From contig CAWJZV010000006.1 in assembly GCA_963847445.1 (NCBI GenBank), positions 64,001 through 128,000 of the forward strand: a stretch of DNA of 64,000 nt, read 5' to 3'. The notes below the pieces were generated by a model that was not told where the DNA came from, made no database searches, and saw only the letters and a program-made list of their open reading frames with translations. Origin of the DNA: an uncultured delta proteobacterium. Its GTDB lineage: Bacteria; Desulfobacterota; Binatia; UBA9968. Below, piece after piece: positions 13,846 to 31,815 of this stretch. A program made the position numbers and the translations under genes. The stretch's first letter is position 1. Each line of letters begins with the position of its first letter.

Positions 13846-13890
13846 AAGTGGGTTGCGCCGAATCGACTTCGACGCGACTTTGACTTTCAC

Positions 13891-13979
13891 GCTTCCCTAC
13901 GCCGGTGCGACCCGGATCAGGTTCAAAGGGTTACCTGTTTTTCAGGCTCTCAGTCTGACTCGGGCAGACACCCCTAGCT
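13891..13979 (-). ncRNA. TPP riboswitch (THI element)
   Basis: Minus strand AGGGGTG...CTGAGA...ACCCTTTGAACCTGATCCGGGT...ACCGGCGTAGGGAAGC directly upstream of thiS. Confidence 0.95.
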
Positions 13980-14142
13980 ACGACAGCACCCTTAACAAAG
14001 CACCAGCTCCAAGTCAAATTCGCGCCGCCGAACGCTTGATTCTGGAACTGTTGATGGAACGGAGACTTCAACTGTCGAACGGTGGCGGGATAATTTTATC
14101 CGGCCACTGCTAATCGGAGTTGTTCCGTGGCGTGTCAGCGTA

Positions 14143-28858: not shown

Positions 28859-28980
28859 TCGGATTATCTCTCGCAAAGGCGCAAAGACGCAAAGGTAGAG
28901 AAGTTTCCTCGGCTCTGGATGACGGGCCTTGCCCGTCACTTGGCGTCTTTGCGCCTTTGCGGAGTAATCTCCTAATCCGA
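28859..28980. repeat. REP/MITE-like inverted-repeat element (full copy)
   Basis: TCGGATTA...CGCAAAGGCGCAAAGACGCAAAG is inverted against CTTGGCGTCTTTGCGCCTTTGCG...TAATCCGA, with internal hairpin TGACGGGC/GCCCGTCA. Confidence 0.8.
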
Positions 28981-29010
28981 TGTCTCTATCTTACCGTGGT
29001 GAGTAAATCT

Positions 29011-29731
29011 ATGACAACCTGGCCGGCAGCGCCTGCCGAACTTCCGGCGCTTGAACGGACCGTCCATGTTTGGGCGGTGCCGTTAGATGACGCGCGTGTC
29101 GATCTCGACGGCGGGCGGGAGCTGCTCTCGCCGGACGAGCGCGAACGCGCGGCGCGCTTTCATTTTGAACAGCACCGGCGGCGCTATCTGATTGCCCATA
29201 TCGCGCTGCATAGGATTCTCAGCCGCTATTTACAGATTGACCCGGCGCGACTGTCATTTCGAACTTGGCAGCAACGGCAAGCCCAAGCTGCCACCGGTGC
29301 TGGCGCCGGCCGGCGTCGACTTCAATCTCTCTCATTCCAACGAAATGGCTTTGCTCGCGGTCAACCTCATCGGCGAGATCGGTGTCGATATCGAGTACGT
29401 CAAACCCGACTTCAAGTTCGAGGAGATCGCCGAGCGATTTTTCACGGCGCGAGAAGTAGCGGCGCTGCGCGGACTTCCATCCGAGCTGCAGCGCCAAGCG
29501 TTTTTCAAATGCTGGACCTGTAAAGAGGCCTTTCTCAAAGCCAAGGGCACCGGGCTATCAGGCAAGCTGGATGAGGTGGAAATCACTCTTGGCGCTGCGG
29601 ATCAAGTACTGATCCGCGCAGACGTGCCCGGTTGGTCACTCGCCGAATTGAATTCCATCGACGCTTACCAAGCCGCGCTCGTGGTCGCCGGCTCCTCGGT
29701 ACCCATCCGATACTATCTCTGGCAGCCGTAA
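29011..29731 (+). CDS. Sfp-type 4'-phosphopantetheinyl transferase (indel near 29260)
   Basis: LSPDERERAARF; GKP; FNLSHS; IGVDIE; WTCKEAFLKAKG. Confidence 0.9.
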
Positions 29732-29829: not shown

Positions 29830-30251
29830 TTCATGGGTAGGGCGGGCTTCAGGCCTTTTCTTTTCAGGCGCCAGAACATTGCGCAGCAATAACAAATCCG
29901 CAGTAGCCATCGCTCAGTTTTATAAACCGCTCCGCAAACCGAAGTCTTTCTGTTTCTCCCGCCGGGAGTATCAAAACGACTACACAGTGTAGCAATCGGG
30001 CGACAGCTTAGAAGCTTTTCCCAGGGGGTGTTCTTTATGGCTCGGGAACCAGGTTTCTTCCGTAATTTCAAAATCTTAACCCGTCTGCACCACTGCGCCT
30101 CTGTTCTGGTACAACGATTGCGCTAGAGCGAAGCGTACCGGCGCTGCGAATCTCGCCCGTGCTTGGGGCTAGCGAGCCGGGGGCGCGGTTCGCGATGGCA
30201 GAAAATTTCTCTCGACAGCGGTCGATTTACGGCGGTAGGATCGAATCCAAT

Positions 30252-30309
30252 CAGATACGGCCTGACGATTGCGCCGAACGTGCTGGTGCGGGCGGATAAG
30301 GTGCTTCGG
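30252..30309 (+). pseudogene. Orphan 3' tail of an ABC substrate-binding protein gene (5' exon of the intron)
   Basis: Encodes GLTIAPNVLVRADKVLR, resembling the C-terminus IGLTIPPNVLARADxVIR/K recalled for ABC_sub_bind-type proteins; rest of gene absent. Confidence 0.65.
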
Positions 30310-30986
30310 GAAGCGTCGGCAAAAGCCGGAGGAAGGTAGCGAATGAAAGAGTCGTACGAAGGTAAGACCTAGCCAGTCGCCTTGGCCTCGAGTGATGCGT
30401 TGTGTCGGGCAACCGGCACGGCGAAGCGTTCACAGAGGTACAACCGGGCGGTGTATGGAGCTCCGAAAGCACCCTTTTGAGGTGGCCGACCTTATCCTGA
30501 ATATGGGGAAGGCAACAGTCATGTCGAACGATAAAGGCGAGTTCGATGTGGCCCCCACGGAGTCAGAGACCACCGGCACGGTTGGAAACTTTCCTCACGG
30601 AAGCCGAGAGACCCCGGTAACATCCGTTTCTATCGTAGAAGCGGATCGGTCGGAGAAGGCGCGAGGCCACAATGCCGACGTGCACGTTATCGGGGAGTCA
30701 CACAGTTCCATAGTACCAAAGAAGCCGGCGAACAAAGGCCGAGTGCCCAGGCCTGCGGAGTCGGGGGAGGGAAGGGGACTGACCAAGGAGAACACCGAGC
30801 AATCGCTACTGGACCGGACACAGAGCCGGAACTCGGACGGGAAACCGTTTGTAGCCAGGTCGCGTGGATTGCTGGGTGTACGTGTAGCTTTTGCACGTCA
30901 ACATCCGAGGTAAGAGCCGTATGCGGTAGCTCCGCACGTACGGATCTGTGCGGGGGGCGGTCAGCAATGACCGTCCCTACCGCGAT
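30310..30986 (+). mobile_element. ORF-less group II intron (IIB-like), about 677 nt
   Basis: Domain V GAGCCGTATGCGGTAGCTCCGCACGTACGGATC (30914-30946, AGC triad); domain VI with bulged A30979; 3' end AT; domain I GCCGAC...GGAAGGC stem; no RT ORF. The 5' boundary is inferred from EBS/IBS pairing. Confidence 0.9.
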
Positions 30987-30989
30987 TAA

Positions 30990-31032
30990 GGCAAAAGTAA
31001 AAATGAATAAGGCAAAATGAAAAGAAAAAAGG
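30990..31032 (+). repeat. A-rich degenerate heptamer run
   Basis: GGCAAAA GTAAAAA TGAATAA GGCAAAA TGAAAAG. Confidence 0.5.
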
Positions 31033-31120: not shown

Positions 31121-31453
31121 ATGACTCACTTGGCGCGAGAAGCTCATAATAGAGAAATCGATGGGGCACGTGCGCGGGAGATCGCGCGCGAGGTTGCCAA
31201 ACTTGCGCGATCGCTGCTTGGCGAAAACACGCAGGTGATCTGGTTTGGTTCTTGGCCCCGTGGCAAGGCGGTGGCTCACTCGGACATCGATGTGGCGGTT
31301 TCGATTGGCATACCGATTCCCGCGGAGCGCATGGCGTTGCTGCACGATGCTGTCGACGACATCGCGACGCTTTATGAAATCGATTTGCTTGACCTTGGCT
31401 CCGCTGGTCCGGGCTTGCGCGACGAAGTTCTAAAACATGGGGAACGACTGTGA
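31121..31453 (+). CDS. MNT nucleotidyltransferase (antitoxin, MntA-like)
   Basis: FGSWPRG....SDIDVAV; IDLLDL. Confidence 0.88.
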   Translation: MTHLAREAHNREIDGARAREIAREVAKLARSLLGENTQVIWFGSWPRGKAVAHSDIDVAVSIGIPIPAERMALLHDAVDDIATLYEIDLLDLGSAGPGLRDEVLKHGERL

Positions 31454-31815
31454 CTAAGCGGCGTCAGGCGTTAGCTTCGGCGCTCGCTCGCCTGCGCGAG
31501 GTCTTGGCACAGCCGGAAAACGACGTGAGCCGTGACGCAGCGATTCAACGCTTCGAGTTCTGTTTCGAACTGGCTTGGAAGGCGATTCAAGAGCAGGCGC
31601 GAGACGAGGGCATGGACTGTCAGTCGCCTAAGAGCTGTTTAAAACTCGCCTTCAAAAACTCTTGGATCCTTGACGAACCGGCGTGGCTGGCGATGCTGGT
31701 GGATCGTAATCAAACCTCGCATACCTACGACGAAGCCCTCGCCAAGGCGGTCTATAGTCGCCTGCGCGGTTACCTGCCACTGTTTGAAGATTTAACGAAT
31801 AATCTTGCGGCGTAG
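31450..31815 (+). CDS. HEPN protein, HI0074 family (toxin, HepT-like)
   Basis: RDAAIQRFEFCFELAWK; RNQTSH (Rx4H); GTGA overlap with the MNT gene. Confidence 0.9.
   Translation: MTKRRQALASALARLREVLAQPENDVSRDAAIQRFEFCFELAWKAIQEQARDEGMDCQSPKSCLKLAFKNSWILDEPAWLAMLVDRNQTSHTYDEALAKAVYSRLRGYLPLFEDLTNNLAA

What the first reader, a model, noticed from the sequence alone, without database searches (positions are those of the whole stretch)
30298..30989. ORF-less group II intron programmed to home at the stop codon of an expanded gene family
Seen: catalytic DV and DVI are intact. The IEP is cleanly deleted: N-terminal-like SRGLLGVR is fused to C-terminal-like FARQHPR*, and the junction closes as a 7-bp hairpin (30880-30898). 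Candidate EBS1 CTGAAT (30497-30502) pairs 5/6 with CTTCGG (30304-30309). Candidate EBS2 CACCCT (30470-30475) pairs 5/6 with the adjacent AAGGTG (30298-30303). The perfect target would be AGG GTG ATT C(A/G)G, i.e. R-V-I-R/Q. Removing 30310-30986 restores A-D-K-V-L-R-TAA exactly. Unspliced, the intron supplies its own in-frame stop after nine codons (EASAKAGGR*), so insertion is nearly harmless. The implied 5' end GAAGCG departs from GUGYG. Inference: a non-autonomous retroelement family that exploits the conserved C-terminus of a multi-copy ABC substrate-binding family as a safe harbour, mobilised by an RT in trans.
Basis: partly seen in the sequence, partly recalled or inferred. Interest (0 to 1): 0.8.

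Follow-up and report, generated by a model that had tools for sequence, protein, structure and literature searches.

The report
Stop-codon-homing ORF-less group II intron
This is a small, protein-less copy of a mobile self-splicing intron that sits exactly between the last codon and the stop codon of a leftover piece of a transporter gene, and it belongs to a widespread soil-bacterial intron family that aims at that same spot in a many-copy gene family.

Summary
Window 30310-30986 (+) is a 677-nt ORF-less group II intron: Rfam D1 model RF02005 scores 153.9 bits and DV/DVI model RF00029 scores 43.4 bits.

Both boundaries are exact. An orthologous locus in a congeneric genome has the same flanks and no intron.

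Full-length relatives of 1941-1948 nt carry an endonuclease-less RT/maturase. They show that about 1.27 kb of ORF was deleted here.

The EBS1 loop covaries with the 5' exon across copies: 37 of 43 metagenome loci pair 6/6.

The target is the last sense codon | stop junction of PF04392 ABC substrate-binding genes. It holds for 52 of 74 metagenome loci and for 17 of 19 readable 3' exons.

The same ORF deletion occurs at different sites, which implies mobilisation in trans.

Caveats:
- The host here is only a remnant of about 19 codons, and it predates the insertion.
- The only RT copy in this assembly reads as frameshifted.
- Splicing was not shown.
- The odd 5' end GAAGCG is a lineage trait, not decay.

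Verdict: a new variant of known kinds, the stop-codon-specialised and ORF-less trans-mobilised group II introns.

The parts
30247..30309 (+). 5' exon. This is the 3' remnant (about 19-21 codons, ...GLTIAPNVLVRADKVLR) of a PF04392 ABC substrate-binding gene. IBS2 AAGGTG is at 30298-30303 and IBS1 CTTCGG at 30304-30309.
   Evidence: DNA homology to 36 other paralog C-termini starts at 30247-30249. tblastn finds only 19 aa. An intact paralog is PF04392 at 159.3 bits. The same remnant is present without the intron in G014:C17.
30310..30986 (+). ORF-less group II intron, 677 nt.
   Evidence: Rfam hits. Boundaries are fixed by the paralogs, by the orthologous empty site and by relatives at other sites. 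Fold z-score is -6.93.
30310..30315 (+). Non-canonical 5' terminus GAAGCG (canonical is GUGYG).
   Evidence: Read. The same terminus occurs in G003, G014 and G005 and in 18 of 52 metagenome SBP loci. GAGCG occurs in 30 of 52 and GUGCG in none.
30310..30339 (+). In-frame read-through of the unspliced form: nine codons (EASAKAGGR), then TAG at 30337-30339.
   Evidence: ORF 30163..30339.
30348..30572 (+). Domain I core (Rfam RF02005, group-II-D1D4-6).
   Evidence: 153.9 bits, model positions 1-225 of 225.
30470..30475 (+). EBS2 CACCCU. It pairs 5/6 with IBS2 AAGGUG and would pair 6/6 with AGGGUG.
   Evidence: Position read. Relatives with CACCCU sit at A(A/G)GGUG exons. Relatives with CAUCCU sit mostly at other exons, though L137 and L173 are at SBP exons.
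30494..30504 (+). EBS1 loop AUCCUGAAUAU. EBS1 CUGAAU (30497-30502) pairs 5/6 with IBS1 CUUCGG. The loop is one nt longer than in relatives.
   Evidence: Relatives L191 and L183 read AUCCGAAU.. (EBS1 CCGAAU). Contigs in runs X1 and X16 lack base 30498 (table 4).
30392..30913 (+). Residual open frame of 173 aa. An IEP N-terminal remnant (...GRGLTKENTEQSLLDRTQSR...SRGLLGVR) is fused to a C-terminal remnant (FARQHPR*). There is no RT domain.
   Evidence: Pfam finds no family. Compared with the intact IEPs of G014 and G027.
30880..30898 (+). Hairpin closing the ORF-deletion junction (type A junction GTACGTG-TAGCT-TTTGCACG; break at 30888-30890).
   Evidence: Homology break. Junction alignment. The hairpin is in the MFE fold.
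30912..30986 (+). Domains V and VI. AGC triad at 30915-30917, bulged branch-point A at 30979, 3' end ...CGCGAU.
   Evidence: RF00029 at 43.4 bits against a gathering score of 40. Positions read.
30987..31020 (+). 3' exon: the TAA stop (30987-30989) and an SBP-type downstream spacer TAAGGCAAAAGTAAAAATG...
   Evidence: Matches the sequence downstream of paralogs at C6:133323, C4:216885 and C24:31203. In the empty site of G014:C17, 31 of the first 34 nt are identical.

Best explanation
Window 30310-30986 is a non-autonomous (ORF-less) group II intron retroelement.

It descends from a roughly 1.94-kb intron that encodes an RT/maturase without an endonuclease domain. An internal deletion of about 1.27 kb removed the RT and left the ribozyme domains and the two ends of the ORF.

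It inserted by reverse splicing and reverse transcription (retrohoming) exactly between the last sense codon and the TAA of a pre-existing 3' remnant of a PF04392 ABC substrate-binding gene.

The intron RNA reads the target by base pairing. EBS2 (CACCCU) and EBS1 (CUGAAU) pair with the codons for the conserved (K/R)-V-(I/L)-(K/R) C-terminus. The first base of the 3' exon is the T common to all stop codons.

Its family uses this junction in the many paralogs of the gene family as homing sites, and retargets by changing the EBS1 loop. ORF-less members must be spliced and moved by an RT/maturase supplied in trans by full-length relatives.

Shown: identity, boundaries, the deletion, the target rule, covariation, and the same deletion at several sites.
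Inferred: retrohoming as the route, trans-mobilisation, and present-day activity.
For: Identity: Rfam RF02005 at 153.9 bits and RF00029 at 43.4 bits.

Boundaries:
- 31 of the 36 other paralog C-termini are followed directly by a stop codon at the position equivalent to 30309.
- The orthologous empty site in G014:C17 is identical in 120 of 166 columns for the 5' flank and in 31 of the first 34 nt for the 3' flank.

Parent form:
- The full-length copies G014:C31 and G027:C52 have open 565- and 574-aa frames.
- They match TIGR04416 at 354.8 bits (cut-off 300) and RVT_1, with no further domain.

Target rule:
- SBP-junction insertions occur in G000, G003, G014 and G005, and in other genera in G033, G031, G103 and G096.
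- In metagenome contigs, 52 of 74 loci with a readable junction are at an SBP C-terminus. 17 of the 19 with a readable 3' exon start with TGA, TAA or TAG.

Base pairing:
- 9 of 14 genome copies pair 6/6.
- 37 of 43 metagenome loci pair 6/6. There are 16 distinct IBS1/EBS1 combinations and 12 of them pair 6/6.

Mobility after ORF loss:
- The type A junction is found at the window, G003, G021, L191/L197 and L206, all with different flanks.
- The type B junction is found at L146/L152, L147, L200 and four G005 contig ends.
- An RNA-library contig is identical to 30699-30987 in 289 of 289 nt and then continues into a different 3' flank (record 18).
Against: - No splicing evidence: none of the 4 runs laid showed a joint that skips 30310-30986.
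- The host here is a remnant that may not be transcribed.
- The only group II RT found in this 91.8%-complete assembly (C45) reads with three 1-nt indels.
- No full-length relative was found in G003 or G021, which also carry ORF-less copies.
- The window's own EBS1/IBS1 match is only 4/6 in the family register, or 5/6 shifted by one.
- The 5' end is not GUGYG.
- Host genes at SBP sites are often broken: 8 of 10 genome-level sites are remnants, and 19 of 38 metagenome sites have under 150 aa open. The insertion may therefore not be neutral in working genes.
Confidence: 0.85

Rival explanations
1. Fossil copy. The element is a true ORF-less group II intron, but in this genome it is now inert: not spliced, not mobile, and simply decaying in a dead gene remnant.
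For: - No intact RT in the assembly.
- The host is a 19-codon remnant.
- The EBS1 loop carries an extra base relative to relatives, and pairing with the exon is 4-5 of 6.
- No spliced joint was seen.
Against: - DV, DVI and D1 score as intact.
- An RNA-library contig is 100% identical over 289 nt and has a different 3' flank, which points to recent movement of this very lineage.
- The assembly is 91.8% complete and visibly indel-prone, so the RT frameshifts may be errors.
- The copy is 93% identical to the G003 copy.
Confidence: 0.35
2. Spread by DNA recombination. The intron reached SBP 3' ends by gene conversion or unequal recombination between paralogous C-termini, not by RNA-mediated homing.
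For: The roughly 60-nt C-terminal coding block is conserved at 75-92% among 36 other sites in the genome. That is enough for homologous exchange. SBP genes often lie in tandem.
Against: - The EBS1 loops differ between copies in step with their own 5' exons.
- Copies with matching EBS1 also sit at non-SBP sites: 22 of 74 loci, for example GUCAGG, GACAGG and GUAUGG sites.
- The 3' flanks differ between copies.
Confidence: 0.05
3. Co-opted element. The intron serves the host, for example as a splicing-dependent switch between native and tail-extended substrate-binding proteins, or as a 3' regulatory RNA.
For: - The position keeps the host frame intact and adds only a short tail.
- 17 of 38 assessable metagenome sites have full-length open host frames.
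- The odd 5' termini are confined to SBP-site copies.
Against: - In this window the host is a dead remnant.
- Copies are patchy among congeners: 6 of 31 genomes, G000 included.
- Many hosts are broken.
- The pattern fits a selfish element.
Confidence: 0.05

Closest known systems
Thermosynechococcus elongatus TeI3 ORF-less introns and their TeI4 parents (Mohr, Ghanem, Lambowitz 2010, PMC2882425; abstract and the section on ORF-less origin were read)
   Same: - The ORF-less copies keep N- and C-terminal ORF remnants.
- They share deletion break-points.
- They proliferated after the deletion.
- They diverged in target specificity.
- They depend on RTs from related full-length introns.
   Different: - Here there are several deletion types (A, A', B, C) rather than one.
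- The main target is one defined coding junction of a paralog family, not other introns, IS elements or varied sites.
- The IEP lacks an endonuclease domain.
- The 5' termini are non-canonical.
- Mobility has not been tested here.
Specialised IIB1 lineage at start/stop codons of housekeeping genes, e.g. the Avi.groEL and EcKTE56.groEL introns (Gomes et al. 2025, PMC12584367; abstract, introduction and passages read. It cites Michel et al. 2007, which was not seen.)
   Same: - Insertion is tied to a stop codon, so the host ORF stays whole whether or not the intron is spliced.
- Targeting is highly site-specific and RNA-guided.
- A delta-ORF form can be mobilised when the RT is supplied.
   Different: - groEL introns sit between positions 2 and 3 of the stop codon. 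This one sits before position 1.
- The groEL lineage carries a 300-700-nt insertion at the base of domain I. This whole intron is 677 nt, with only 38 nt before the Rfam D1 model.
- Their hosts are single essential genes. Here the host is a gene family with 60 matched stretches in one genome.
Endonuclease-less bacterial group II introns such as RmInt1 of Sinorhizobium meliloti (search-listing abstracts only; the mechanism is recalled)
   Same: The IEP has RT and maturase regions but no D/En domain. Target choice therefore rests on EBS/IBS pairing, and priming is expected to use replication-fork strands (recalled knowledge, not tested here).
   Different: RmInt1 homes into an insertion sequence, not a coding junction. 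The best plasmid-borne IEP relatives found are only 50-54% identical and come from Burkholderia, Pseudomonas and Acidithiobacillus. Class membership was not determined.

Membership tests
Group II intron ribozyme | Domain V catalytic hairpin, and domain VI with a bulged branch-point A near the 3' end | tested here: met
   RF00029 scores 43.4 bits against a gathering score of 40 at 30912-30986. AGC is at 30915-30917 and the bulged A at 30979, read.
Group II intron ribozyme | Domain I with EBS1 and EBS2 loops complementary to the 5' exon | tested here: met
   RF02005 scores 153.9 bits. EBS1/IBS1 and EBS2/IBS2 each pair 5/6 here. Across relatives, 37 of 43 loci pair 6/6.
Group II intron ribozyme | 5' terminus GUGYG | tested here: not met
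   The terminus is GAAGCG. SBP-site relatives have GAGCG (30), GAAGCG (18), GAGGCG (2), GAUGCG (1) and GUUGCG (1) of 52 loci. Sister copies at other sites have GUGCG. A natural GAGCG start in yeast aI5gamma is recalled, not checked.
Group II intron ribozyme | Self-splicing or RT-assisted splicing at the mapped boundaries | not testable with these tools
   The only sequence data available were contigs. No spliced joint was seen in 4 runs.
ORF-less, trans-mobilised group II intron | RT ORF removed from domain IV while the ribozyme is kept | tested here: met
   The intron is 677 nt, against 1941-1948 nt for relatives. The junction is mapped. Pfam finds nothing in the 173-aa remnant.
ORF-less, trans-mobilised group II intron | The same deletion found at different insertion sites | tested here: met
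   The type A junction occurs in the window, G003, G021, L191/L197 and L206 with different flanks.
ORF-less, trans-mobilised group II intron | A cognate RT/maturase available in the same cell | tested here: inconclusive
   The only TIGR04416 matches in G000 are two pieces of the C45 copy (206 and 93.9 bits, below the cut-off). That copy has three 1-nt indels. The assembly is 91.8% complete and indel-prone.
Specialised IIB1 start/stop-codon lineage (groEL-type) | Insertion within or next to an initiation or termination codon | tested here: met
   The intron lies directly before TAA. 17 of 19 relatives at SBP sites are followed by a stop codon.
Specialised IIB1 start/stop-codon lineage (groEL-type) | A 300-700-nt 5'-subterminal insertion at the base of domain I (as described in PMC12584367) | tested here: not met
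   Only 38 nt separate the 5' end (30310) from the start of the D1 model (30348). The whole intron is 677 nt.
Specialised IIB1 start/stop-codon lineage (groEL-type) | Phylogenetic placement inside that monophyletic clade | not tested
   No groEL-intron sequence was compared.

The most novel reading that the evidence does not exclude
The intron family has turned a whole paralog family into a renewable homing-site reservoir. The target would be the codons for the conserved (K/R)-V-I-(K/R) C-terminus plus the T shared by all three stop codons. The non-canonical 5' terminus (A at position 2, often with an extra A) is found at 51 of 52 SBP-site loci and at fewer non-SBP loci. Under this reading it is an adaptation to that niche, for example tuning the splicing pathway or efficiency so that host proteins carry either their native end or a short intron-encoded tail.
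Probability: 0.15. Interest if true: 0.7.

Novelty: new variant of a known kind. Interest (0 to 1): 0.55.

Why it matters
Mobile group II introns usually avoid genes or run out of target sites. This family appears to solve both problems.

- It aims at a 12-13-nt site that is repeated dozens of times per genome, because it encodes a conserved protein C-terminus.
- It inserts at the one position, just before the stop codon, where an unspliced intron costs the host protein only a short tail.

This extends the 'stop-codon specialist' strategy, known from groEL introns, to a multi-copy gene family. It shows natural retargeting by EBS1 change on a large scale. It also provides many compact (672-693 nt) ORF-less ribozymes with unusual 5' ends for splicing studies.

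There is a practical point for annotation. Substrate-binding proteins called from such loci will carry false C-terminal extensions such as EASAKAGGR.

Tried and rejected
- EBS3/IBS3: I scanned an alignment of 6 copies for a column that covaries with the first base of the 3' exon. No column had the expected A/U/G pattern, so this stays unresolved.
- Splicing and expression: I laid 1 DNA run and 3 RNA-library runs (contigs only). No joint skipped the intron, and cover in an RNA library does not prove transcription.
- 'Introns persist only in dead remnants': the genome-level sample suggested this (8 of 10 sites). The metagenome sample weakened it (17 of 38 hosts open for at least 300 aa). I kept it only as a caveat.
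- 'Exon remnant co-copied with the intron by read-through reverse transcription': rejected for this locus, because the same remnant exists without the intron in G014:C17.
- A second genus-wide search covered the same 31 genomes as and added nothing.
- The promoter/terminator scan gave only consensus-level hits: a weak promoter-like site at 30212-30241 and a terminator-like site at 29844-29856. I did not use them as evidence.
- Literature: three full-text searches found no paper that links group II introns to ABC substrate-binding genes. Supplements were not available. Simon et al. 2008 was not held, and Michel et al. 2007 was not seen.
- The intron class (A-F, CL, ML) was not determined.

Full report
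**Observation check**

The stretch is a group II intron.
- Rfam's domain I model RF02005 (group-II-D1D4-6) matches 30348-30572 at 153.9 bits against a gathering score of 49. The DV/DVI model RF00029 matches 30912-30986 at 43.4 bits against 40 (repeated).
- By reading, DV carries AGC at 30915-30917 and DVI has a bulged A at 30979, the eighth base from the 3' end ...CGCGAU.
- The 677-nt RNA folds far better than shuffles (z = -6.93).
- The only long frame inside (30392-30913, 173 aa) has no Pfam domain. It ends ...SRGLLGVRVAFARQHPR*.
- The frame entering from upstream reads ...RADKVLR, then EASAKAGGR, then TAG at 30337-30339.
- The 5' end is GAAGCG.

**Boundaries**

In the window's own genome (G000; 48 contigs, 91.8% complete), 30247-30309 matches 36 other places. 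These are the conserved 3' ends of a gene family...AAKQIGLTIPPNVLVRADRVIR. In 31 of the 36 a stop codon follows directly at the position equivalent to 30309. An intact member is PF04392 (ABC_sub_bind) at 159.3 bits, and the genome has 60 stretches that match that family. The sequence after 30986, TAAGGCAAAAGTAAAAAT..., recurs downstream of several paralogs.

The decisive evidence is an orthologous locus in the congeneric genome G014 (contig C17).
- It shares the non-coding DNA upstream and the same short gene remnant, then runs straight on as ...GTCATCAGA|TAAGGCAAAAGTAAAAATG... with no intron.
- The 5' flank is identical in 120 of 166 columns.
- The first 34 nt of the 3' flank are identical in 31 positions.

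The insertion is therefore exactly 30310-30986. There is no ambiguity at either end, and the remnant existed before the intron arrived.

**The host here is a remnant**

Homology to the family starts only at 30247-30249. The strongly conserved FEFIVNLKAAKQ block is missing, there is no long ORF upstream, and tblastn with ten intact paralogs finds only 19 residues. The neighbours are a 4'-phosphopantetheinyl transferase upstream and a nucleotidyltransferase/NTase_sub_bind pair downstream.

**The parent form and the deletion**

A second copy in G000 (C45:133-2077) and copies in G014 (C31) and G027 (C52) are 1941-1948 nt long. They align with the window on both sides of 30888/30890. The G014 and G027 copies have open frames of 565 and 574 aa. 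The G014 protein matches TIGR04416 (group II RT/maturase) at 354.8 bits against a cut-off of 300, and matches RVT_1. It has no further domain, so no endonuclease domain. The window keeps the first part of that frame and its last seven codons, and about 1.27 kb is gone.

**Relatives and mobility after ORF loss**

Among 31 genomes of the genus, 6 hold close copies, G000 included.
- ORF-less copies with the window's junction (type A: GTACGTG-TAGCT-TTTGCACG, with minor variants) are in G003 and G021 at unrelated flanks. They also occur in metagenome contigs L191/L197 and L206.
- A second junction (type B: GTGAAGCCGTGAGG) is in four contig ends of G005, an unpublished genome, and in the public contigs L146/L152, L147 and L200.
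- Two further types exist: A' at 693 nt, and C.

The same deletion at different sites means the ORF-less forms moved after losing the RT. An RNA-library contig (run X16, record 18) is identical to 30699-30987 in 289 of 289 nt, crosses the type A junction, and then continues into a different flank, (T)GAAGAAGGC....

**Target rule**

At genome level, SBP-junction insertions occur in four genomes of the genus: G000, G003, G014 (a full-length copy) and G005. A lineage only 66-68% identical has them in other genera of the same family: G033 (two copies), G031, G103 (three copies) and G096.

- 74 of these loci had a readable 5' junction. 52 lie at an SBP C-terminus and 22 do not.
- Of the 19 SBP loci that also show the 3' end, 17 continue with TGA (14), TAA (2) or TAG (1).

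**Base pairing**

The EBS1 loop (30494-30504) varies between copies in step with the last six exon bases.
- Examples: CUUGAU with AUCAAG, UUUGAU with AUCAGA or AUCAAA, CCUGUC with GACAGG, CCUGAC with GUCAGG or GUCGGG, CCAUAC with GUAUGG, and CCGAAU with GUUUGG.
- 9 of 14 genome copies pair 6/6.
- 37 of 43 metagenome loci pair 6/6. There are 16 distinct combinations and 12 of them pair 6/6.
- Mismatched combinations average 4.46 pairs, against 5.63 for a copy's own exon. The contrast is modest because the targets resemble each other.
- EBS2 CACCCU accompanies exons with A(A/G)GGUG. Relatives with CAUCCU sit mostly elsewhere, though L137 and L173 are at SBP exons.

The window's own match is imperfect.
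- EBS2 pairs 5/6 with its exon.
- EBS1 pairs 4/6 in the family register, or 5/6 shifted by one base.
- The window's loop is one base longer than in relatives. Contigs in X1 and X16 lack base 30498.

**The 5' terminus**

GAAGCG is not a local defect.
- It is shared by G003, G014 (with an intact IEP) and G005.
- At the 52 metagenome SBP loci the termini are GAGCG (30), GAAGCG (18), GAGGCG (2), GAUGCG (1) and GUUGCG (1). None is GUGCG.
- 14 of the 22 non-SBP loci have GUGCG.
- The more distant lineage has GAUGCG, GAGGCG and GAAAGCG.

Lineages with these ends have inserted at many sites, so the ends are presumably compatible with splicing. This is inferred, not shown.

**State of the host genes**

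- At genome level there are 10 SBP-junction copies with an assembled 5' flank. One host is open right up to its contig end (G033:C357, 295 aa aligned). One is full length with a frameshift six codons from the end (G103:C87). Eight are remnants.
- In metagenome contigs, 38 SBP loci have at least 1000 nt upstream. The host frame is open for at least 300 aa in 17, for 150-299 aa in 2, and for under 150 aa in 19.
- Both ORF-less copies (L129, L206) and a full-length copy (L154) occur at intact hosts.
- In G000 itself, about 7 of 37 scored C-termini are short remnants.

The junction is therefore used in working genes. Broken hosts look over-represented, but the samples are neither independent nor matched, so this stays a caveat.

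**How it most likely works**

- Shown: the intron RNA carries EBS2 and EBS1 complementary to the 12 bases that encode the conserved C-terminal residues. The 3' exon starts with the T of a stop codon.
- Inferred from established group II intron biology: the excised RNA, bound by an RT/maturase, reverse-splices into that DNA site and is copied into DNA. Because the IEP has no endonuclease domain, priming would rely on replication-fork strands, as recalled for RmInt1-type introns.
- ORF-less copies need the protein in trans.
- Placement before the stop codon means an unspliced copy adds only nine residues here.

**Evidence against present activity in this genome**

- The only group II RT match in G000 is the C45 copy, which has three 1-nt indels relative to the G014 and G027 copies.
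- C45's flanks are the GUAUGG/CAUACGCCC site, whose cognate EBS1 is CCAUAC (L179, L198), yet C45 reads CCUGAC. It may be a collapsed or chimeric assembly.
- The assembly splits many genes across frames.
- No spliced joint was seen.

**Comparison with what is known**

The closest analogues are two.
- The T. elongatus ORF-less introns derive from one deletion, proliferated with diverging targets, and use RTs in trans (PMC2882425; abstract and one section read).
- The specialised IIB1 lineage sits at start and stop codons of housekeeping genes, such as the groEL introns (PMC12584367; abstract, introduction and passages read).

This element works like both but is not a member of the groEL lineage as that lineage is defined. 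It lacks the 300-700-nt insertion at the base of domain I, and it lies before the stop codon rather than inside it. Three full-text searches found no paper that links group II introns to ABC substrate-binding genes. Supplements, Simon et al. 2008 and Michel et al. 2007 were not seen.

**Verdict**

This is a new variant of known kinds, of moderate interest. Claims that rest on the unpublished genome G005 are three GAAGCG 5' junctions and four type B junctions. The type B junction is independently shown by public contigs.

Noticed in passing
window 13877-13985 (-): TPP riboswitch (RF00059), 72 bits against a gathering score of 54.3.
   Followed up: no
window 28957-29731 (+): A 4'-phosphopantetheinyl transferase (PF01648, ACPS) reads as two overlapping ORFs in different frames (28957..29523 and 29192..29731). 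This is either a frameshifted gene or an assembly indel. Many PF04392 paralogs in this genome are likewise split across frames.
   Followed up: partly
window 31121-31815 (+): Overlapping gene pair just downstream of the intron: a Polbeta-type nucleotidyltransferase (PF18765) and NTase_sub_bind (PF08780). By recall this is the layout of MNT/HEPN-like toxin-antitoxin pairs.
   Followed up: no
G000:C45:1-2100 (L002): Full-length sister copy with a canonical GUGCG end, inserted in the centre of a palindrome (GGGCGTATGG|intron|CATACGCCC). Its IEP has three 1-nt indels. Its EBS1 (CCUGAC) does not fit its own exon (GUAUGG, 4/6), whereas metagenome copies at the same kind of site have CCAUAC (L179, L198). 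It may be a collapsed or chimeric repeat assembly, or a recombinant.
   Followed up: partly
L035 (G027:C52) and metagenome loci such as L138, L160, L163, L171, L172: A sister lineage with a GUGCG 5' end targets ...GGGGACAGG sites. In G027 the two flanks form an inverted repeat (AGGGAAAGGGGACAGG | CTGAGCCCCTTCCCT), so some relatives appear to home into hairpin-forming sequences.
   Followed up: no
G000 paralog loci, e.g. C24:29615, C4:217987, C4:219078: Low-complexity repeats lie directly downstream of many PF04392 genes (TTTTGGATTTTCGATTTTGGATT, GGCAAAAGTAAAAAT, AGGCAxxAGGCA). Their function is unknown.
   Followed up: no
L075 (G014:C17:314950 onward): In the orthologous empty locus the SBP remnant is followed by a full-length PF04392-like gene. 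G000 has the nucleotidyltransferase pair there instead, so the region downstream of the remnant has been rearranged between the two genomes.
   Followed up: no
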